DNA from: a virus
Virus record (IMG/VR): IMGVR_UViG_3300020391_000004
Span: 1-64,000 of that record
Reading direction: 5' to 3' (one strand)
DNA: 64,000 bases
Below the pieces are notes generated by a model. It was not told where the DNA came from. It searched no databases and saw only the letters and a list, made by a program, of their open reading frames with translations. A program made the position numbers and the translations under genes. Shown in pieces: positions 20,724 to 29,578 of this stretch (its first letter is position 1; the number at the start of each line of letters is the position of its first letter).

Positions 20724-20772
20724 TGTTTACCTTAAAAATTGTTGTATAGTTTACTTATGATTAAATATGTGT

Positions 20773-21642
20773 ATGTCAAAAAAACTTGTTATGCCTTTTG
20801 TAGAAACTATGATAACTTATGCTTGTAATTTAAGTTGTACAGGTTGTTCAAATTATAGCGATTACAATATGAAGGGCAGCGTTCCATGGCGACAGGGTAA
20901 GGCATGGATAGAACAATGGCTAGCAAGATTAGATATATTAGACTTTGGTATAATGGGAGGCGAACCAACACTAAATCCAGAATGCGAACATTGGATATAT
21001 GGTATAAGATCTCTATTACCAAATAGTCAAATAAGATTTACTACTAATGGTGCAAATTTTATTAAACGTCCTGATGTATTAGACTGGTGTGTTGATGTTG
21101 GTAATAGTGTATTTAAATTTACTATACATGAAGATAAGCCTTATGCAAAAAAAGCAATAGATTATGTGTTTAGTAAGTATGAATGGAAACCTATTACTGA
21201 ACATGGAATAAATCGCTGGGTGGGCCCAAACAATACTCGCTTTCAGATTAATTCACCATTACAATTTTTTAAAACTTATAGAGGCAATTTTGGAGATATA
21301 CACCCACATCATAATAATCCTAAAGAAGCATTTGACATGTGTATTCAACAAACCTGTCCATTATTATATGAATCTAAAATATATAAGTGTAGTAGTATTG
21401 CATTGTTAAATAAAGTACTACATGATTGGCGACAACCTATTACAGAACATTGGAAACCTTATACTGACTATAAAGGTATATCACCTGAAAGTAGCACACA
21501 AGATATAAAAATGTTTATAAAAAACTTTGGAAAACCACATAAAATTTGTACAATGTGTCCTACAAAAAAAGATAAGGATAGTATTATAGATCATAGATCT
21601 AATGTCATATCTAAAAAACAATGGATAAAAATAAATGCTTAA
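20773..21642 (+). CDS. Radical SAM protein (start revised to 20773)
   Basis: CNLSCTGC, MGGEPTL, TTNG; C-terminal Cys cluster. Confidence 0.9.
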   Translation: MSKKLVMPFVETMITYACNLSCTGCSNYSDYNMKGSVPWRQGKAWIEQWLARLDILDFGIMGGEPTLNPECEHWIYGIRSLLPNSQIRFTTNGANFIKRPDVLDWCVDVGNSVFKFTIHEDKPYAKKAIDYVFSKYEWKPITEHGINRWVGPNNTRFQINSPLQFFKTYRGNFGDIHPHHNNPKEAFDMCIQQTCPLLYESKIYKCSSIALLNKVLHDWRQPITEHWKPYTDYKGISPESSTQDIKMFIKNFGKPHKICTMCPTKKDKDSIIDHRSNVISKKQWIKINA

Positions 21643-23533
21643 TCTATACCTAGTGCAAACTACAGACAAGTATGGACCTAATGCTTTCCTACCACTAGCA
21701 ATTAGTTATCAGTGGATGTATGCACAGGCTGATGACCAAGTTAAACAGAACTATCATGTTGAAGATGTTCTTATAGAAAAAACTCCCCCTAAAGAATATG
21801 TAAAGAATATGCCAGTTGAACCACACATAGTTGCAATGAGTAGTTATGTTTGGAATTGGGAATATAACAAAGCACTTGCAACCGAAATAAAACGTGTTTA
21901 TCCTGATTGTGAAATTGTAGTAGGGGGACCTAATGTTGATAAAAGAAATAAAAAGTTTTATACGGACTTTCCTATGTTTGATATTGCAGTCATGGGAGAG
22001 GGAGAGCAGGCATTCAGACAGATATTGAAACAAAGATTAGGAAATAGAAACTATAACGGAATTCCTAGTGTATTCCCAAAAGGTGGCGATATATGCAACT
22101 TACCAGAACGTTTTAGAGATTTAGAGGCTATACCTAGTCCTATACTAAACGGATTTTATGACTGGGTAATAGAAAAAGTAGAATCAAAACTAGGTCCACA
22201 GATGTGGCAAGTCACATATGAAACACTAAGAGGGTGTCCATATCAGTGTACATTTTGTGATATAGGTGATTTATATTGGAATAAAATTAGTAAGTTTGAT
22301 ATGCCACGTATTGAAGCAGAAATAGATTGGATGGCAGAACACAAAATTGAATATGTTGGTGTATGCGATAGTAATTGGGGAATGTTAAAACGTGATTTAG
22401 ATATAACTGCTTATGTAATAAAAAAGAAAAAAGAAACAGGATACCCAAAGTTCTGGGACGTAACATGGGCAAAAGCAAATAGCGAAAATATTTACAAAAT
22501 TGCTAAAATGGATAAAGAAGCAGGAACAAGGTTATTTAAAGGTGTGACGTTTGCTATGCAAAGTTTAAATTTATCTACCCAACAAGCGAGTAAACGTATA
22601 AATTTAAAAAGCAATGAAGCACTAGAATACATGACAAAGTATGAGGAAGAAAATATACCTACATACAGTGAACTAATATGGCCTATGCCAGAAGAAACAT
22701 ATGATACATTAAAAGAAGGCATACAAAAATTAGTGGACTTAGGACAAAAGAGTTTTCTAATGGTACATCCTCTTGTATTAACTTTTAATGCTACTATGGG
22801 ACAAAAACATTATATTGAGGAATATGGGCTTAAATGGAAAGAAGTTCCATTAGATACATACTACCTTAGTGTTGAAGATTTAGAAAACTATATTGTGGAA
22901 AAAACTATGGGAGTATATGCCACTAACACTGCAGATGAAGTACTTACAATGAGGGGTAACTTATTTTCCTATCTTTTTATTACTATGTATTATTATGGTT
23001 GGGCTCATTACTTAATGGAATATATGTACAACAAACATAATATAAGACATATAGATTTTATTGAGAGTATGCTGAATTATTTTTTTACAAAAAATTGCCT
23101 AATAGGCAGTGAGATTAGACAAACAGAAAAACATATGCACGATGTATTTTATGGAGATAGTTTTTGGGGCAGGCAAGTATTAGAAAATGATATATATTGG
23201 GAATATAAAGGTGCCAGTAGTGTTGTATTTCATCAAAATAGAAATAAATTAAAATATGAACTTATAGATTTTGTATATAGTCATTATGAAATAGACGTAA
23301 GTGATGTAGTAGAATTTAATATACATGTGTGTAAAGATCCTAATACTAAATATCCTTTCAATATAAAAATTAACAAAGATACAAGCACATATTGTTTAAA
23401 CAGTGATGTTACAAATTTGAAAGTAGATCATTGGGATAAAGAAGAACTTGATGAAAGAAAATTTTATCACGTCAGCTATCATTGGCAACGTAAAAATCAT
23501 TATTGGAAGTGTACTACTAGTGCTTTAAATTAG
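21635..23533 (+). CDS. Cobalamin-binding radical SAM protein
   Basis: N-terminal B12-binding region (MSSYVWN, VVGGP, GEGE) followed by RGCPYQCTFC. Confidence 0.9.
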   Translation: MLNLYLVQTTDKYGPNAFLPLAISYQWMYAQADDQVKQNYHVEDVLIEKTPPKEYVKNMPVEPHIVAMSSYVWNWEYNKALATEIKRVYPDCEIVVGGPNVDKRNKKFYTDFPMFDIAVMGEGEQAFRQILKQRLGNRNYNGIPSVFPKGGDICNLPERFRDLEAIPSPILNGFYDWVIEKVESKLGPQMWQVTYETLRGCPYQCTFCDIGDLYWNKISKFDMPRIEAEIDWMAEHKIEYVGVCDSNWGMLKRDLDITAYVIKKKKETGYPKFWDVTWAKANSENIYKIAKMDKEAGTRLFKGVTFAMQSLNLSTQQASKRINLKSNEALEYMTKYEEENIPTYSELIWPMPEETYDTLKEGIQKLVDLGQKSFLMVHPLVLTFNATMGQKHYIEEYGLKWKEVPLDTYYLSVEDLENYIVEKTMGVYATNTADEVLTMRGNLFSYLFITMYYYGWAHYLMEYMYNKHNIRHIDFIESMLNYFFTKNCLIGSEIRQTEKHMHDVFYGDSFWGRQVLENDIYWEYKGASSVVFHQNRNKLKYELIDFVYSHYEIDVSDVVEFNIHVCKDPNTKYPFNIKINKDTSTYCLNSDVTNLKVDHWDKEELDERKFYHVSYHWQRKNHYWKCTTSALN

Positions 23534-24164
23534 TAAAAACTGTCATTCCTATTTTATGATCGTGTTCGTTACTAGCACAATGTAATTGTTTACGATCAAA
23601 TACTATAATATCACCTGGTGTCCATGGCACAACCTTATCAACCATTAGTCCATGTAAATTATCATAAGGAATATGAGTAAGATATAGACTGTATAAAACA
23701 GTATCAAATGGTCTGTTTGTATAACCTACGATATTACTGTAATTAGTGATACGTTGATCTTTTGTTGTAATTTGTTTTGTGTTATCTTTTACATGACTAT
23801 ACGGATCTTCACTACGTACAAATTTAGCCGCATCATAATCCCAATAGTTATTAAAAAATACAGTGCTACCATGTTCACACTTTAATGGTACAATTATACC
23901 TTTATTAACATATGGATTATTGTATCCGCTATCAACATGTATTTGAAAACTAATTGTGCTTTCATTGAATATTACTTCTTCAACTATACTATCATTATCT
24001 ATTAAAGGCTCAATTACTTCCTGAGGCCATTTATCGATATCCCACCTAGGGTGTTTACTACGCACTGTAGTTCTAGTATCAGTTCGTTCGTCATCTAAAT
24101 AATGATATTCTAATAATTTGTTAAGTTGTTTATCGTTTATTACATCCTTGTGTACTGTAATCAT
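23517..24164 (-). CDS. Putative Fe(II)/2OG oxygenase-like protein
   Basis: IHVDSG (HxD) and distal LHCA. Confidence 0.5.
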   Translation of the reverse strand: MITVHKDVINDKQLNKLLEYHYLDDERTDTRTTVRSKHPRWDIDKWPQEVIEPLIDNDSIVEEVIFNESTISFQIHVDSGYNNPYVNKGIIVPLKCEHGSTVFFNNYWDYDAAKFVRSEDPYSHVKDNTKQITTKDQRITNYSNIVGYTNRPFDTVLYSLYLTHIPYDNLHGLMVDKVVPWTPGDIIVFDRKQLHCASNEHDHKIGMTVFTNLKH

Positions 24165-24472
24165 AGTCTCGTTTTTACTTCTTCTTGTTCTTGTTCAGTT
24201 AGTTCCTCTAATTCCATATGACCTTGTCTTACTAACCAAGTCAAATGTTTTACGTAATCATCATTTAAGTAAGTATCAGTAGTCTCTTTATCTAACTGCA
24301 TCCAATTTGTACCTGTATAACGATAAAGTTTATTTGGTAGTGCATCAACTCTTACAAATAGATCACCTTTGTCAGGTTGCTTTGGAAATATAGTTCCAAA
24401 ATCTGCTTGGGCCGCCTTGTCTAAATCAAGATCCGCTACAACGGCTAGTTTTGGAGTAGGGATCGTTAATCT
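24161..24472 (-). CDS. Start-less -1 frame extension (103 aa) of the upstream membrane protein
   Basis: Open frame RLTIPTPK...DFGTIFPKQPDKGDLFVRVDALPNKLYRYTGTNW...KTRL; its stop overlaps the next ATG (ATGA); no start codon near its 5' end. Confidence 0.8.
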   Translation of the reverse strand, partial: RLTIPTPKLAVVADLDLDKAAQADFGTIFPKQPDKGDLFVRVDALPNKLYRYTGTNWMQLDKETTDTYLNDDYVKHLTWLVRQGHMELEELTEQEQEEVKTRL

Positions 24473-24478
24473 TTTTTT
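24411..24478 (-). promoter_or_regulatory. Candidate -1 ribosomal frameshift cassette
   Basis: A_AAA_AAA heptamer, 7-nt spacer, predicted H-type pseudoknot. Confidence 0.7.
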
Positions 24479-26232
24479 GGTTCTGTAGTAGATTCTTCAG
24501 GTGTTGCCTGTGCTATAAGATCATCTGCAAACTCATCTTTTTCGACTAATTGATATTTTTCAGCCATTTTAATAACGACTGCATCACGTCTTTCAATCTC
24601 TGCTTCTTGTTCTGCAATTTTTTTAAGCAATTCTTCTTCTCTTGTTTTGAGACTTTCAGCACCTAACTCTATTTCGTCAAGTGTTGCTTTATATGCATCA
24701 CGTTCTGCTTCAGTTTCTACAACCTTATCTACTAAACCATCACCTATGCCTTTAAGTTCCTTAATTTCTGCTTCTAATTGTTCTATTGTTTTTATAAGAG
24801 CATCACGTTCTGCTTCTAATGCTCGATACTTTTTAGGATCTATATTTGCAAGATTACCATCTAATAGTTTTTCTATCTCTGCTAATACATCATTATGTTT
24901 TTTTAGTTCCATTTCTAGTTCCTCTACTCTTGGATCACTGACCCTTACTATTTGTTCTTTTATTACAGGTTTATTCTTTTGCCTTTCCTCTCTCCACCAA
25001 CCAATTGTCATTGTACCTGCTAGTACTAGACACACTGCTAGTGGATCAAAAACTGCTACAATTATAATTATGACCCAACGCACTGCATCTTCTAATAAAC
25101 TACGGTCTGCGTCTCCATAAATTAATTCTGCAATATATTTTACAGGTCCTACTTCTGCTTCAAACTGTCTATACTTTTTTTCAAACTGAAACTTTGCATC
25201 TCTTAATTTATCTTTTTGAGGTTGTATAGTGGCAATTTTATTCTCAAGTTCAATTATTTTTTGTTCTACTTCTTTACTACCTGTGCCCGCGTCAGATGTA
25301 TGCTTTTGTATATTTTTATTTGCTAGGTCTATAGTAGGTTGTATACTTTTACGTATTTCACTTACACGATTTTCTACGTCTGCAATTTGTTTTGCTAACT
25401 TATTATTAATTTTTGTTATTTCACGTTGTACTCTACTAGCAACACCTATTTCATTCTTTTTTGCTTGTGCTATTTGATCATTTAGTTTCTTACGTTCTGT
25501 TGCTTGTTCTTTACGAAGCTCTTTACCTTTAGCTACATTATCTACATCAGCAGTAAATACTCCGCCTTTTGTAGTACCTTGTTTTAAGTATGCTTCTACG
25601 TCTTTGTCTAATACTGCTAGACGTTTATTTGCTTGTACTATATCTGCTTTTGTACGATTCTGTGCATCTTTTAAACGTTTTTCTTGTTGTGCAATTTCTT
25701 TATCGGCTTGTGCTTGATACATAGGTATCTTTGCATTTTGTGCTACAATTTGTGGTTCTATACTTTTACGTGCATTATCTATTCTATCTTGTTCCAGTTT
25801 TATAAGATTATCAACTCTGACGTTTTGACCACCTTTGTTTAATCGTTCTATATCTTCTGTCCAACGATTAATTTTACTATCTATGGTAACAAGTTTTTCA
25901 TCAATAACTTCCATTTGTGCAAGTTGTTCGCCACCTATTGCACTTTGTTCAATATGACTTTTACTTAGAAATCCAAATACACCCATGCTCGTAATAAACA
26001 TTAATACAATTACTGCACTAGTCAAATAATATTTTATAGCACTAGGTGCCCTTTTCCAATTTTGATGTAACCACACTGTGGCTAAGAGTTTACCTACTTC
26101 TAGCACACTACCCATTAATACAATAGGCAAAAAAGCCGCGGCAAATATTGCAGTAAGACCTACTATACTGTAATAGGCTGCAATTACACTTATACTTAAA
26201 GCCACAATTAATGTAAGGATTCCTAAAAACAT
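24466..26232 (-). CDS. Membrane-anchored long coiled-coil protein
   Basis: Three N-terminal TM segments, long coiled coil, internal TM (VRWVIIIIVAVFDPLA), second coiled coil. Confidence 0.8.
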   Translation of the reverse strand: MFLGILTLIVALSISVIAAYYSIVGLTAIFAAAFLPIVLMGSVLEVGKLLATVWLHQNWKRAPSAIKYYLTSAVIVLMFITSMGVFGFLSKSHIEQSAIGGEQLAQMEVIDEKLVTIDSKINRWTEDIERLNKGGQNVRVDNLIKLEQDRIDNARKSIEPQIVAQNAKIPMYQAQADKEIAQQEKRLKDAQNRTKADIVQANKRLAVLDKDVEAYLKQGTTKGGVFTADVDNVAKGKELRKEQATERKKLNDQIAQAKKNEIGVASRVQREITKINNKLAKQIADVENRVSEIRKSIQPTIDLANKNIQKHTSDAGTGSKEVEQKIIELENKIATIQPQKDKLRDAKFQFEKKYRQFEAEVGPVKYIAELIYGDADRSLLEDAVRWVIIIIVAVFDPLAVCLVLAGTMTIGWWREERQKNKPVIKEQIVRVSDPRVEELEMELKKHNDVLAEIEKLLDGNLANIDPKKYRALEAERDALIKTIEQLEAEIKELKGIGDGLVDKVVETEAERDAYKATLDEIELGAESLKTREEELLKKIAEQEAEIERRDAVVIKMAEKYQLVEKDEFADDLIAQATPEESTTEPKKD

Positions 26233-26271: not shown

Positions 26272-26754
26272 CTAACTTGCACGGAAAGGACGACCGACTA
26301 TATGAGGATGAGCATCACCTAAGTGAGTGCCTGTATTATCAGTGTTGTTATTACCAACAAATCTTGCTTGTAGTCTTAGAGTAGTGCCTATATTACGAGT
26401 GCGATAGTAATTTGCATCAGTGTCTTCTGCTAAACCACCTTGCCTTTTAAATGAGGCAATTTCAATTGTGGCTTCCTGATATGCTTGTTTTGTAGACTGA
26501 CGTGCAGTAGCACAAGTTACCAAGTCACCTGCTACGACACCTGCGGCGGCTAAAGTAGTTGAAGCATTGGTTGTACTGTCAAATAATGTGCCATTTTTAT
26601 TAATACTTACACGACCATAAACACCTGAACTAATATTACCATCGTCATTTGATATTATTGCAGTGCGAAGTTGTGCAAAAGTCTGTCCATTGTCAATAGT
26701 CAGATTCTCATGTATTCCTGTCAATTGCTTATATTTTATTGCTATGTTTGCCAT
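26272..26754 (-). CDS. Putative virion protein (start revised to 26754)
   Basis: TATAAATA-CAGT-ATG start. Confidence 0.65.
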   Translation of the reverse strand: MANIAIKYKQLTGIHENLTIDNGQTFAQLRTAIISNDDGNISSGVYGRVSINKNGTLFDSTTNASTTLAAAGVVAGDLVTCATARQSTKQAYQEATIEIASFKRQGGLAEDTDANYYRTRNIGTTLRLQARFVGNNNTDNTGTHLGDAHPHIVGRPFRAS

Positions 26755-26758
26755 ACTG

Positions 26759-26772
26759 TATTTATATAAATA
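26759..26772. promoter_or_regulatory. Palindromic bidirectional late promoter TATTTATATAAATA
   Basis: Perfect 14-bp palindrome giving TATAAATA on each strand before divergent ATGs. Confidence 0.7.
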
Positions 26773-26777
26773 TTTAC

Positions 26778-27419
26778 ATGCTATTAAACGAAATAACAAA
26801 ATCTTCAAATGTAGATACTAGTAAAGTAAAACTTTCAGGTAACATGACATACAAACAAATAGCACAGTCAATTCAAAAAGCATTTCCAGAACTAAAAGTT
26901 GAAATCGAAACTACGCCAGACCTAGATGTTGGCGAGTTTAGTATGGGAGCAGAATTTGATGTTGATACTAAAAAAATTATATTATATCCTCAGTTTAGTA
27001 AAAAAACAAATAGTATTAATTGGACTGATAGTGGCGTCGACACTTTCAGGACTTTACTTAATGATGTTATTAAGCACGAACGATTACATTCGAAACAATT
27101 TGCAAGAAGAAATTATATCGACACCTCTGTGGGAATCGATAATCGTGACGCTAATTATGAATATATGAGCAGACCAGATGAGATCGAAGCTTATGCAATG
27201 AACATTGCCGATGAACTTATCCGTAAAGCAGGTAAAGATGGTGCAATAGATTTATTAAGAATGGCAAATAAAACTGCCCAATTCAAAGATGAAATGGGCA
27301 ATTTGTTAAGTCCTAATTTACTTGCTTATCTAGCTATGTGGAATTATGACAGCACTCATCCAGTTTTAAAACGCCTGTATAAAAAGACCTATCAATATAT
27401 TACTGAGCAGACATCCTAA
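26778..27419 (+). CDS. HExxH metallopeptidase-like protein with MLLNEI N-terminus (start revised)
   Basis: KHERLH followed by DEIEAYA. Confidence 0.6.
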   Translation: MLLNEITKSSNVDTSKVKLSGNMTYKQIAQSIQKAFPELKVEIETTPDLDVGEFSMGAEFDVDTKKIILYPQFSKKTNSINWTDSGVDTFRTLLNDVIKHERLHSKQFARRNYIDTSVGIDNRDANYEYMSRPDEIEAYAMNIADELIRKAGKDGAIDLLRMANKTAQFKDEMGNLLSPNLLAYLAMWNYDSTHPVLKRLYKKTYQYITEQTS

Positions 27420-27909
27420 TTACTACACTAATGTTGCCACCAACGCCAGGATTCCTTGTCCTTGTAGTAGTGCCAGTAAAACCTGCGGCTTTATAAGTAA
27501 TTTTGTATCCTGCCAAATACTCTTCTGTGCTTGTATCATATGATGTACTACATTTTTGTATTGTTCTGTAACCTGTTATTTGTTGGTTGTTCATTTTATT
27601 ACCGAATAATCCACCTATAATTGCACCAGCAGTGCCTCCATCAGGTAAATTTTTTGTAACATTTTGTCCTATAATTCCTCCTATTATGGCACCAGGAACA
27701 CTAAACTGATTATTTTGTGATTGACCATAAACAGGTACATCTTCGTTCCAACATTTTTGTATAGGTGTGTTAATTGTTTTTGTTTTGTATACAGGCTGAC
27801 TATCTATAATAGTTCCTGTCACTGTAAATGTTTCTGCTAATGCAAGTCCAATGTTTAAAAAGAAACATAATATAATTATGTTTACATACATTAAATTTTT
27901 TATTGTCAT
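27400..27909 (-). CDS. Glycine-zipper 2TM exported protein
   Basis: Signal peptide; GAIIGGIIG...GAIIGGLFG. Confidence 0.8.
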   Translation of the reverse strand: MTIKNLMYVNIIILCFFLNIGLALAETFTVTGTIIDSQPVYKTKTINTPIQKCWNEDVPVYGQSQNNQFSVPGAIIGGIIGQNVTKNLPDGGTAGAIIGGLFGNKMNNQQITGYRTIQKCSTSYDTSTEEYLAGYKITYKAAGFTGTTTRTRNPGVGGNISVVIRMSAQ

Positions 27910-28033: not shown

Positions 28034-28762
28034 TTAATTCTCCTTTGGGTAAAACCAACCTGCTAAACTATACCTAGGATGATCTGCAGTAATACAGACT
28101 GGACTTATAAAATGTTTGTTGATCCTAGCGCCACTGCTTTCACTGACGTCCATTATAACTAATCTATTGCCAAAAGGTTCTATGCTATCTTTAATTGTTT
28201 TTTCATCTTGCTCTAATATACAAAGTTGACCTCCCCATTGAGTTAACCATGTATTGTTAAAATAAAATATGTAAGCACAATACCTTTTTGGGTCATGATG
28301 AGCTGATAACCAAGAAGTGTTATCATAATAACTATATGTTGGTTGGTTAGTGAACATATTAGTAAATCCCGTCACTTCACTAACTAAGTCATTAAAATTA
28401 TATTCTAACTTTTTAATACTATAATCTTCATTTACTACACGATTAAATTCAGTCACATAAGCATTATCATGTATTAAATGATGTTCCTTTAAAAGCCAAT
28501 AGGCGTAATGAAAATAACTAAAGTTGCCTCTGCCTTTTTCTATATAATCAAACAACACATCATGAAACTGGTCACTTTCTTTAAATCCTGCAGGAAACTT
28601 TTCATGAGTACTTTTTACACATGCCCAAACTCCATATGGCAATTTAGGTACTGCTTTGTATAATGCATTTATATAGTTAAATTGTAAAACATTATCTATG
28701 ACTGCATATCTATTGTTAGCAAAGTCTTCTTTTGCTTTTGCTATATTATCTTGATTAAACAT
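28034..28762 (-). CDS. 2OG-Fe(II) oxygenase (prolyl-hydroxylase-like)
   Basis: HHD, YFN..W...WGGQL, P..NRLVI, H.ISPV, R.S..GW. Confidence 0.85.
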   Translation of the reverse strand: MFNQDNIAKAKEDFANNRYAVIDNVLQFNYINALYKAVPKLPYGVWACVKSTHEKFPAGFKESDQFHDVLFDYIEKGRGNFSYFHYAYWLLKEHHLIHDNAYVTEFNRVVNEDYSIKKLEYNFNDLVSEVTGFTNMFTNQPTYSYYDNTSWLSAHHDPKRYCAYIFYFNNTWLTQWGGQLCILEQDEKTIKDSIEPFGNRLVIMDVSESSGARINKHFISPVCITADHPRYSLAGWFYPKEN

Positions 28763-29578
28763 TTATCCTCTTTTGTAAAATATATGATCATCTATTTTTA
28801 CTATCTTTTTCATTGTTTTATTCCATTTTGGATTAACATAGTCTGCATGATAATGTGTTGCACCTTCTAATACATCTTTCCATTTATCAAATGCTAAAAT
28901 TTGATAAGCAATATTTTCAGCAGTGTTCCAAGCTCTATTTTTTTCTTTGTTAATTACTTCGTCTTTCTTACCATCACAATACCAACTAAACTGACATCTA
29001 TCTCTCTTTGGATAATATATACGTTTGTCATCAGGTAAATCTTTTATTTGGGCAGTTTTCCAACTTTCACGGACAGGACCTTCAAAAATAACACCACAGG
29101 TATCTGCCGGATAACGTCTATCTAAAACACGATTCATTACAACTCTGCCTACTGCAATTTGTCCTGCTATACTTTGATTGTTTGCTTCTCTATAAATGTT
29201 TAGTGCAAGACAATCTACTTCTTCTGGTTTAACTATATCCTTTATATTTTTTAGTTCAGCTTCTTTAATAGGCTTATATATAACTCTTGTAGTGTTTATA
29301 TGTTGTATCACTGGCTTTTCAATAATAGTAGGTACTTCTATTTCTTTAATAATTACTTTTTCAACTATTTGAGGAACTTTTATTTCCTTAACTACAGTTT
29401 TTGTTTCTACAATAGGAATCTTTATTTCTTTGACTACTACCCTTTCGACAGGTACTTCTACACGTTCCGTCTGTTTTTCAATTACTATTTTTTCAGGACC
29501 AAAAAAATGTAAACCTACTGCACCAATAATTAGACCAGATAAAAATTTAGCCAAATTAGACATCCATACTCTCCGCAT
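28763..29578 (-). CDS. Cell wall hydrolase, SleB family, with N-terminal anchor and stalk
   Basis: CLALNIYREA, AVG.VVMNRV, CQFSWYCDG, GATHYHADYVNPKW, IDDHIFY. Confidence 0.92.
   Translation of the reverse strand: MRRVWMSNLAKFLSGLIIGAVGLHFFGPEKIVIEKQTERVEVPVERVVVKEIKIPIVETKTVVKEIKVPQIVEKVIIKEIEVPTIIEKPVIQHINTTRVIYKPIKEAELKNIKDIVKPEEVDCLALNIYREANNQSIAGQIAVGRVVMNRVLDRRYPADTCGVIFEGPVRESWKTAQIKDLPDDKRIYYPKRDRCQFSWYCDGKKDEVINKEKNRAWNTAENIAYQILAFDKWKDVLEGATHYHADYVNPKWNKTMKKIVKIDDHIFYKRG

What the first reader, a model, noticed from the sequence alone, without database searches (positions are those of the whole stretch)
24161..24480. Candidate programmed -1 frameshift with an H-type pseudoknot
The 588-aa gene ends CCA AAA AAA GAT TAA. 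The -1 frame from there is open for 103 codons, has no start codon near its 5' end (first ATG about 57 codons in), is closed by a TGA just upstream, and its stop overlaps the next gene's ATG. Seven nt after the A_AAA_AAA heptamer lie stem 1 GAUCCCUAC/GUAG(C)GGAUC (9 bp, one bulge), loop UCCAAAACUA, stem 2 GCCGUU/GGCGGC, and a 13-nt loop. This predicts a 588-aa and a 690-aa isoform of a membrane coiled-coil protein, not the usual tail-chaperone context for phage frameshifts.
Basis: partly seen in the sequence, partly recalled or inferred. Interest (0 to 1): 0.9.

Follow-up and report, generated by a model that had tools for sequence, protein, structure and literature searches.

The report
Conserved -1 frameshift in phage membrane protein
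A gene for a membrane coiled-coil protein in an abundant group of marine phages almost certainly uses a programmed -1 ribosomal frameshift to make a short and a long version of the protein, a case of a well-known mechanism in a gene family where I found no published report of it.

Summary
On the minus strand, a 588-aa ORF (26232..24466) ends CCA AAA AAA GAT TAA. The -1 frame then runs 103 codons with no start codon and encodes a folded domain.

I compared 175 related loci. In 68 of them (41 distinct contexts) the same domain sits in the -1 frame. All 41 contexts carry an in-frame X_XXY_YYZ heptamer (A_AAA_AAA/G/C/T, once C_CCA_AAG) inside a two-frame overlap as short as 10-16 nt; chance predicts about 3%. 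A hairpin follows, 5-7 nt downstream in most contexts. Its arms differ between lineages but stay complementary. The -1 ORF is under purifying selection (dN/dS 0.06-0.22), and fused relatives lack the heptamer.

The proposed pseudoknot stem 2 is supported only in the window's own lineage, mainly by rare Ala codons fixed at the paired positions. Other lineages use longer plain hairpins.

Function is unknown. The gene is linked to a SleB-type cell-wall hydrolase. The extension weakly resembles phage fibre modules.

This is a new member of a known kind (canonical bacterial -1 frameshifting). No experiment or RNA data were available.

The parts
24466..26232 (-). Zero-frame ORF, 588 aa. About 3 N-terminal TM helices, a long coiled-coil hairpin, a fourth TM segment and a C-terminal coiled coil. 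Stop TAA at 24468-24466.
   Evidence: architecture from the AlphaFold model of the naturally fused homologue L008
24472..24478 (-). Slippery heptamer A_AAA_AAA, in X_XXY_YYZ register (CCA AAA AAA).
   Evidence: Same position and register in all 41 distinct related contexts. Base rate 0.32% per codon.
24497..24499 (-). TGA that closes the -1 frame upstream. Together with the zero-frame TAA it limits the possible shift zone to about 28 nt in the window.
24465..24471 (-). 7-nt spacer GAUUAAC, which contains most of the zero-frame stop codon.
   Evidence: Spacers are 5-7 nt in 34 of the 39 contexts with a hairpin.
24456..24464 (-). Stem 1, 5' arm GAUCCCUAC.
   Evidence: Covariation.
24430..24439 (-). 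Stem 1, 3' arm GUAG(C)GGAUC, with bulged C at 24435.
   Evidence: 99.4% of cells paired; columns 22-54 GC 10 / AU 9 / GU 1
24440..24445 (-). Proposed pseudoknot stem 2, 5' arm GCCGUU, inside the loop of stem 1.
   Evidence: The rare Ala codon GCC is fixed here in 16 of 18 type-I sequences.
24411..24416 (-). Proposed pseudoknot stem 2, 3' arm GGCGGC, 13 nt after stem 1.
   Evidence: The rare Ala codon GCG is fixed in 18 of 18, while the next Ala codon varies freely.
24161..24472 (-). -1 frame extension: 103 codons plus TGA, with no start codon in its first ~57 codons. Encodes a short linker and a folded domain of 4 beta-strands and 2 helices.
   Evidence: 683 representative homologues; pLDDT 80; dN/dS 0.06-0.22
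23517..24164 (-). Next gene (215 aa, no family match). Its ATG overlaps the -1 ORF stop as ATGA.
   Evidence: The same kind of overlap occurs in 21 of 38 related contexts.

Best explanation
This is a programmed -1 ribosomal frameshift.

Mechanism. Ribosomes translating the 588-aa membrane coiled-coil gene reach A_AAA_AAA, with the two Lys-tRNAs in the P and A sites. An RNA structure that begins 7 nt downstream holds them there. In this lineage the structure is a 9-bp hairpin, probably closed into an H-type pseudoknot by a 6-bp second stem. A fraction of ribosomes slip back one base. Those that do not slip terminate two codons later and make the 588-aa form. Those that slip read 103 more codons and make a 690-aa form with an extra C-terminal linker and a small beta/alpha domain.

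What is shown by comparison: the signal is conserved, the structure covaries, and the -1 ORF is translated.

What is inferred:
- The frameshift sets a fixed ratio of two isoforms that share the membrane and coiled-coil parts, so they can co-assemble with only some subunits carrying the terminal domain.
- The protein belongs to a cell-envelope or lysis module.
- The shift efficiency is unknown.
For: (1) Conserved split. Of 96 loci where both parts are found, 68 (41 distinct contexts, from many independent metagenomes) have the domain in the -1 frame after the zero-frame stop. The top 120 database relatives, down to 64% identity, are all shorter than the ~690 aa of a fused form (nearly all 578-602 aa).

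(2) Slippery heptamer. All 41 contexts have an in-frame X_XXY_YYZ heptamer in the two-frame overlap, which is only 10-16 nt long in several lineages: A_AAA_AAA 16, AAG 16, AAC 5, AAT 3, C_CCA_AAG 1. The base rate in the same genes is 0.32% per codon, so about 3% per zone is expected.

(3) Downstream hairpin. Its spacer is 5-7 nt in 34 of the 39 contexts that have one. Mean MFE is -13.7 against -5.9 kcal/mol for other windows of the same genes. Arm sequences differ between lineages and encode different amino acids, yet stay complementary. In the type-I alignment stem 1 is 99.4% paired, with three pairs changed on both sides, and slid controls fall to 30-52%. RNAalifold on 22 lineage representatives recovers the outer 5 bp, all with compensatory changes.

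(4) Translation of the -1 ORF. It has no start codon for 19-90 codons but is under purifying selection, with dN/dS 0.06-0.22. It encodes a confidently folded domain that sits at the C-terminus of hundreds of other proteins, including naturally fused full-length homologues.

(5) Controls. Fused homologues have no heptamer at the junction. In the model of a fused homologue, the site maps to a disordered linker.

(6) Sequence accuracy. A7 is reproduced in independent assemblies.

(7) Stem 2. Ala codons in these genes are GCA 74%, GCC 4.5%, GCG 3.8%. The paired positions carry GCC in 16/18 and GCG in 18/18, while the adjacent unpaired Ala codon follows normal usage. L002 shows the compensatory GCU/GCA change.
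Against: - There is no direct evidence. No RNA run holds the stretch, and there are no proteomic or reporter data.
- The window's hairpin alone is not exceptional (z = -1.3).
- Stem 2 has almost no independent double changes (each rests on one sequence), and protein conservation of the ...AV...KAA... motif confounds it.
- No upstream Shine-Dalgarno-like stimulator of the dnaX kind is present (6 of 40 sites against a 7.6% background).
- An A7 run could allow some polymerase stuttering in parallel.
- The host and its Lys-tRNA set are unknown, and the window has no tRNA gene.
- A few relatives (A9/A10 runs without structure, one A6 variant) do not fit a pure ribosomal model.
Confidence: 0.85

Rival explanations
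1. Transcriptional slippage. RNA polymerase stutters on the A run and adds one A to a fraction of transcripts. Those transcripts then encode the fused 690-aa protein in a single frame.
For: The window has A7. Three contexts have A9 (L131 and L132 with essentially no downstream structure; also L083). L137 and L149 have A10 with the domain in the +1 (= -2) frame, which suits stuttering better than ribosomal slippage.
Against: - 16 contexts have only A6, and L021 has C_CCA_AAG, which has no usable homopolymer.
- The run is always in the X_XXY_YYZ codon register, which polymerase slippage does not require.
- A conserved, covarying hairpin 5-7 nt downstream is the hallmark of ribosomal, not transcriptional, slippage (the mechanistic point is from my own knowledge of the recoding literature).
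Confidence: 0.07
2. The -1 ORF is translated on its own, by initiation at a non-canonical start or by re-initiation after termination at the zero-frame stop. That would give a separate ~100-aa protein and no fusion.
For: The zero-frame stop lies within 0-12 nt of the start of -1 coding. In other clades the C-terminal half is a separate gene with its own ATG (L060; L010/L011/L051).
Against: - No ATG/GTG/TTG occurs in the first 19-90 codons in any lineage, and no conserved near-cognate start is seen.
- Amino-acid conservation in the -1 frame begins directly after the heptamer.
- The natural splits occur elsewhere (after TM4) and carry a proper ATG.
- This model does not explain why a slippery heptamer is always present and in register.
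- In every other homologue the domain is attached to a larger protein.
Confidence: 0.04
3. Artefact or decay. A homopolymer sequencing or assembly error splits a single 690-aa gene, or the gene is a pseudogene that is losing its C-terminal domain.
For: Homopolymer runs are error-prone. One relative (L109) has one base fewer than its sister L106 and is probably such an error.
Against: - A7 is reproduced in assemblies from three studies.
- The same -1 relation is seen in 68 loci with five different heptamers, against 3 loci with another relation at the site.
- Strong purifying selection on the -1 ORF, with dS at or near saturation between lineages, excludes decay.
Confidence: 0.02

Closest known systems
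E. coli dnaX -1 frameshift (tau/gamma subunits)
   Same: An A_AAA_AAG-type heptamer read by Lys-tRNAs. A stimulatory hairpin a few nucleotides downstream. Two isoforms made from one gene at a set ratio. (Own knowledge of the established system.)
   Different: In dnaX the shift gives the SHORTER product, and it uses an upstream Shine-Dalgarno-like stimulator. Here the shift gives the longer product, and no conserved upstream SD-like motif is present. There is no Rfam match to any frameshift element.
IS3-family insertion sequences (e.g. IS911, IS150, IS3) OrfA-OrfB transframe transposase
   Same: A_AAA_AAG or A_AAA_AAA heptamers. A downstream hairpin or H-type pseudoknot. The -1 ORF has no start of its own. 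A fusion protein adds a C-terminal functional domain. (Own knowledge.)
   Different: The gene is unrelated (a transposase, against a phage membrane coiled-coil protein). Here the overlap is only 10-46 nt, and the zero-frame product is nearly full length.
C-terminal extension frameshifts of phage capsid proteins (T7 gene 10A/10B; Lactobacillus phage A2 major head protein)
   Same: A -1 shift a few codons before the normal stop adds a C-terminal extension to a minority of subunits of an oligomeric phage protein. A2 is cited as ref. 41 in PMC10885494; T7 is from my own knowledge.
   Different: Those are capsid proteins. This one is a polytopic membrane protein, not known to be in virions, and its extension is a separately folded domain behind a disordered linker.
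Tail assembly chaperone gpG/gpGT frameshift of tailed phages
   Same: A conserved phage -1 frameshift that fixes the ratio of a short and a long form sharing an N-terminal part (Xu et al. 2004, cited in PMC8163748 and PMC10885494).
   Different: The gene family, genomic position (not between the tail tube and tape-measure genes) and protein type all differ.

Membership tests
Bacterial-type -1 programmed ribosomal frameshift site | In-frame X_XXY_YYZ slippery heptamer inside the zone where both frames are open | tested here: met
   A_AAA_AAA at 24478-24472. Present in 41 of 41 distinct related contexts, against about 3% expected by chance.
Bacterial-type -1 programmed ribosomal frameshift site | Stimulatory RNA structure about 5-9 nt downstream, supported by covariation | tested here: met
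   Spacer 5-7 nt in 34 of 39 contexts with a hairpin. Stem 1 is 99.4% paired with compensatory changes. RNAalifold recovers 5 of 5 outer pairs with double changes. MFE is well below the gene background.
Bacterial-type -1 programmed ribosomal frameshift site | The -1 ORF lacks its own start and is under protein-coding selection | tested here: met
   No start for 19-90 codons. dN/dS 0.06-0.22. Folded domain with 683 representative homologues.
Bacterial-type -1 programmed ribosomal frameshift site | The transframe protein is actually produced, and depends on the heptamer and the structure | not testable with these tools
   Needs a reporter assay or mass spectrometry. No RNA holder was listed for the stretch.
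H-type pseudoknot stimulator | A second stem between the hairpin loop and downstream sequence, supported by covariation | tested here: inconclusive
   Stem 2 is 91.7% paired, but its two double changes each rest on a single sequence. There is strong synonymous-site constraint (GCC 16/18, GCG 18/18, against 4-5% usage). It is absent in the lineages with long hairpins.
dnaX-type frameshift signal | Upstream Shine-Dalgarno-like stimulator about 10 nt before the heptamer | tested here: not met
   An SD-like 4-mer occurs in 6 of 40 sites, against 7.6% of background windows, and it is not conserved.
Rfam frameshift elements (any curated RNA family) | Covariance-model match | tested here: not met
   Only one chance-level hit (E = 6.7, a miRNA model) in 24300-24560.
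Pfam DUF4407 (membrane coiled-coil proteins) | Score above the Pfam gathering threshold | tested here: not met
   No hit for the window protein. Fused homologues P0026 and P0064 score 16-17 bits against a cut-off of 31.3. This is a resemblance only.
DUF2793 / phage tail-fibre module, and phrog_11591 'virion structural protein' | Profile match of the extension domain | tested here: inconclusive
   No Pfam hit for the extension. Partial PHROG hit at E = 1.3e-6 over 50 residues. DUF2793 is matched only by the repeat-bearing relative P0003. Fold searches give only weak matches, to tail, fibre or trimerisation units (BFVD weak rows; PDB Z <= 4.2).

The most novel reading that the evidence does not exclude
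The frameshift sets the stoichiometry of an envelope-spanning, lysis-module-linked membrane complex in abundant marine myophages: a periplasmic coiled-coil hairpin of about 20 nm, with a cytoplasmic tail that only sometimes carries a fibre-like docking domain.

The gene family is also a natural experiment in which the same junction has been solved in turn in five ways: heptamer plus pseudoknot; weaker heptamers (AAC/AAU) plus hairpins about twice as stable; A9-A10 runs that work by polymerase stuttering; outright fusion; and gene fission. In many lineages, frameshifting ribosomes are also delivered directly onto the start codon of the next gene.
Probability: 0.3. Interest if true: 0.75.

Novelty: new member of a known kind. 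Interest (0 to 1): 0.6.

Why it matters
Programmed frameshifts in phages are annotated almost only in tail-chaperone genes. This one sits in a large phage-specific family: more than 7,600 database proteins at E <= 1e-10. The family is common in marine metagenomes and is related to a gene of a cultured Pelagibacter myophage.

Gene callers systematically truncate the protein and miss a whole domain. Some even call a spurious short ORF from an internal ATG.

Recognising the frameshift has three uses:
- It corrects the annotation of these loci. All 120 closest database relatives are called without the domain.
- It gives a set of more than 40 natural variants of heptamer, spacer and stimulator for studying how frameshift efficiency is tuned.
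- It marks a membrane protein linked to cell-wall hydrolases as one whose two isoforms are worth testing in phage lysis or envelope biology.

Tried and rejected
- tblastn of the extension against 50,697 cultured-phage records found no match, so no cultured phage with this exact module was identified.
- The homologue in Pelagibacter phage Mosig is only the 326-aa N-terminal part and offers no frameshift test system.
- The sequencing-run search listed no RNA holder, and only assembled contigs could be laid, not raw reads. Transcript-level slippage could therefore not be measured.
- Rfam: nothing.
- Foldseek against the PDB: no match at E <= 0.001. VIA-align wide search: best Z 4.2, below any meaningful level.
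- The ESM Atlas returned only 'hypothetical protein' clusters.
- NCBIfam gave only generic SMC-like coiled-coil similarity far below cut-off.
- Pfam and PHROG gave nothing for the 588-aa protein beyond coiled-coil noise.
- The search for an upstream Shine-Dalgarno-like stimulator was negative.
- Loop-to-downstream pairing in the non-type-I lineages was no better than shuffles, so I dropped the idea that the pseudoknot is universal.
- A possible third pairing in the window (loop UCCAAAA with downstream UUUUGGA, over the conserved Phe-Gly codons) is not conserved in L001 and was not pursued.
- Earlier notes of this scan held nothing on this feature or on look-alike sequence.
- My first notebook entry gave the A-run as 24474-24480. 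The correct coordinates are 24472-24478.
Full report
**1. The observation**

The feature lies on the minus strand. The 588-aa ORF runs 26232..24466 and ends CCA AAA AAA GAT TAA. The A7 run is 24478-24472. The -1 frame is closed by TGA at 24499-24497 and is then open to TGA at 24163-24161. After a -1 slip on the heptamer it reads 103 codons, giving the junction EPKK|RLTIPTPK and a 690-aa product. The first ATG/GTG/TTG in that frame is about 57 codons after the slip. Its stop overlaps the ATG of the next gene as ATGA.

Logan contigs from four runs in three studies cover 24100-24700 without any insertion or deletion. Two of those runs may be the window's own source, and two are independent. Folded alone, the window's hairpin is not exceptional (z = -1.3). 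The single sequence therefore proves little by itself.

**2. Relatives**

The window is part of a 131.6-kb IMG/VR virus record. Its only DNA-level relative among cultured phages is Pelagibacter myophage Mosig. The protein family is very large: more than 7,600 proteins at E <= 1e-10. All 120 closest relatives, down to 64% identity, are shorter than the ~690 aa of a fused form, and nearly all are 578-602 aa.

I fetched 175 related loci from IMG/VR and from metagenomes and classified them by tblastn:
- 68 loci (41 distinct sequence contexts) have the C-terminal domain in the -1 frame after the zero-frame stop.
- 23 are fused in frame.
- 5 appear as '+1'.
- The rest end before the site or belong to clades without the domain.

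**3. The signal is conserved**

Every one of the 41 distinct -1 contexts has an X_XXY_YYZ heptamer in the correct codon register inside the two-frame overlap: A_AAA_AAA 16, A_AAA_AAG 16, A_AAA_AAC 5, A_AAA_AAT 3, C_CCA_AAG 1. In several lineages the overlap is only 10-16 nt long, which pins the shift to the heptamer. In the bodies of the same genes such heptamers occur at 0.32% of codon positions, so about 3% of zones would hold one by chance. A-run lengths are 6 (16 contexts), 7 (20), 8 (1) and 9 (3), and one site has no run at all.

**4. The hairpin is conserved as structure, not as sequence**

A hairpin follows the heptamer, with a spacer of 5-7 nt in 34 of the 39 contexts that have one. 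The 50 nt after the site fold to a mean of -13.7 kcal/mol, against -5.9 for other windows of the same genes, and 70% of sites lie below the background 5th percentile.

The arms differ between lineages. Examples are GAUCCCUAC/GUAGcGGAUC, CAGGCUUCUAC/GUAGGAGCCUG, GGGUACCUAA/UUAGGUGCCC and GGUUCCUGCU/AGCGGGAACC. They encode different amino acids yet remain complementary.
- On the alignment of 20 sequences alignable with the window, stem 1 is paired in 99.4% of cells, and three pairs change on both sides. One pair alone shows GC 10, AU 9, GU 1. Sliding the partner columns drops pairing to 30-52%.
- RNAalifold, run blind on 22 lineage representatives, recovers the outer five pairs, all with compensatory changes.

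**5. The pseudoknot**

Stem 2 is paired in 91.7% of cells, but each of its two double changes rests on a single sequence. The better evidence is codon choice. In these genes Ala is GCA 74%, GCT 17%, GCC 4.5% and GCG 3.8%. At the two third positions that pair in stem 2, however, the codons are GCC in 16 of 18 and GCG in 18 of 18 sequences. The very next Ala codon lies just outside the helix and follows ordinary usage. Synonymous divergence between these sequences is near or beyond saturation, so this is constraint and not shared ancestry. L002 carries the compensatory GCU/GCA pair with the same 13-nt loop.

Lineages with 11-14-bp hairpins show no loop-to-downstream pairing above shuffles. I therefore rate the pseudoknot as likely (about 0.6) in the window's lineage and absent elsewhere.

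Hairpins after A_AAA_AAC and A_AAA_AAU are about twice as stable as those after AAA and AAG (about -19 against -11 kcal/mol). This would fit compensation for a less slippery A-site codon. That reading is an inference, and the lineages behind it are few.

**6. The -1 ORF is translated**

It has no start codon for 19-90 codons in any lineage, yet dN/dS over the folded part is 0.06-0.22 for informative pairs. It encodes a domain that AlphaFold models with confidence (pLDDT 80): four strands followed by two helices. An exhaustive search finds 683 representative homologues. The domain lies almost always at the extreme C-terminus of proteins of 100-750 aa, including naturally fused full-length homologues of this gene.

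Fused relatives such as L008, L035 and L052 have no heptamer at the junction. In the model of the fused L008 protein, the junction falls in a disordered linker (residues 553-589, pLDDT 30-44) between the last coiled-coil helix and the domain. Weak protein constraint there leaves room for an RNA signal.

In 21 of 38 contexts the start of the next gene overlaps the stop of the -1 ORF. This is the usual layout for a translated ORF within an operon.

**7. Evolution**

In a tree of the N-terminal 430 residues, a clade of 50 rows (SH-aLRT 100) holds 38 frameshift forms. Two fused groups and one A10 form are nested inside it. The frameshift is therefore old in this clade and has probably been lost by fusion more than once. 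In other clades the C-terminal half is a separate gene with its own ATG.

**8. Rival explanations**

- Polymerase stuttering cannot be the general mechanism. Sixteen contexts have only A6 and one has CCCAAAG, the run is always in codon register, and the conserved stimulator lies downstream. It may operate in the A9/A10 lineages, which lack structure.
- Independent initiation is excluded by the absence of starts and by the heptamer rule.
- Error or decay is excluded by reproducibility, by the consistent -1 direction (68 loci against 3) and by purifying selection.

**9. What the protein is**

Hydrophobicity and the positive-inside rule give about four TM segments. On that reading the central coiled coil is periplasmic, and the C-terminal coiled coil plus extension is cytoplasmic (inferred). 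The L008 model shows an antiparallel coiled-coil hairpin about 150 residues long.

No curated family fits. There are only sub-threshold DUF4407 and SMC-like coiled-coil hits. The extension has a partial match to phrog_11591, 'virion structural protein'. It has weak structural neighbours among tail, fibre and trimerisation modules. Its beta part also occurs as 10-13 tandem copies in large proteins that carry DUF2793 or prophage-tail domains. DUF2793 marks tail-fibre-type proteins (PMC5026251).

The gene is linked to a SleB-type cell-wall hydrolase. In the window the hydrolase lies 2.5 kb upstream on the same strand. In 20 loci of both major clades it lies upstream, sometimes directly adjacent. 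In Mosig the homologue directly follows a putative glucosaminidase. My working reading is an envelope- or lysis-module protein whose two isoforms co-assemble. This is the least secure part of the report.

**10. Known or new**

Full-text searches found no report of a frameshift in pelagiphage-type genomes or in this family. The PRFect survey lists tail chaperones, capsid proteins, lysins, polymerases, transposases and a few others. The mechanism is canonical, closest to dnaX and IS3-family signals and, in its outcome, to the T7 and A2 capsid extensions. I therefore class this as a new member of a known kind. It is well supported computationally and untested experimentally.

Noticed in passing
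L137:3200-3260 and L149:1395-1455 (A10 run); L131 and L132 (A9 run): Some relatives replace the heptamer-plus-hairpin with a long A run and essentially no downstream structure. In L137 and L149 (two independent contigs) the domain is in the +1 (= -2) frame after A10. In L131 and L132 it is in -1 after A9, with MFE about 0. These lineages may use polymerase stuttering, or the run lengths may be mis-assembled.
   Followed up: partly
L109:3223-3330: L109 has one base fewer in the A/G run than its close relative L106 (A6 against A7). This puts the domain in the +1 frame. It is most likely a single-base assembly error or a defective variant.
   Followed up: partly
L142, L143, L145 (site near L142:2997-3081): By their N-terminal 430 residues these three sit in a distant clade (46-47% identity to the window). 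Their frameshift cassette and extension, however, are almost identical to the type-I cassette of L108 and L114. This suggests recombination that moved the 3' end of the gene between lineages.
   Followed up: no
L060:2878-3517; L011:4350-4380; L051:3000-3260: In other clades the C-terminal coiled coil plus domain is a separate gene with its own ATG, overlapping the upstream stop (e.g. ATGGCTAA). L051 additionally has an A9 run that breaks the upstream gene.
   Followed up: partly
window 28763-29578 (-), 28034-28762 (-), 27400-27909 (-), 26272-26808 (-): Upstream on the same strand lie a SleB-type cell-wall hydrolase (Hydrolase_2; PHROG endolysin), a 2OG-Fe(II) oxygenase, a glycine-zipper membrane protein and a 178-aa unknown. 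The hydrolase, glycine-zipper and 178-aa genes are syntenic with the frameshift gene in 20-31 related loci.
   Followed up: partly
proteins P0003, P0004, P0005, P0007, P0030, P0087: The beta-hairpin part of the extension (residues ~23-64) occurs as 8-13 tandem copies in proteins of 900-2,700 aa. One of them also matches DUF2793 and a prophage tail endopeptidase domain. It is an uncharacterised phage repeat module.
   Followed up: partly
proteins P0010 (72 aa), P0134 (64 aa), P0150 (81 aa): Public gene calls include very short 'proteins' that start partway into the extension domain. They look like calls made from the first internal ATG of the -1 ORF, which would mean annotation pipelines miss the frameshift.
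   Followed up: no
window 24465-24473 with 24423-24429; 24449-24455 with about 24391-24397: In the window and in L098, stem 1 can be extended by AGAUUAA/UUGAUUU pairing that includes the spacer. Loop UCCAAAA is complementary to UUUUGGA over the conserved Phe-Gly codons further downstream. Neither pairing is conserved in L001.
   Followed up: partly
window 20767-21642 (+) and 21635-23533 (+): Two radical SAM genes, the second with a B12-binding domain, converge on the frameshift operon. The end of the second overlaps the end of the 215-aa gene (23517-23533).
   Followed up: no
window 1-64000: ARAGORN finds no tRNA gene in the window, so the phage does not supply its own Lys-tRNA from this part of the genome.
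   Followed up: yes
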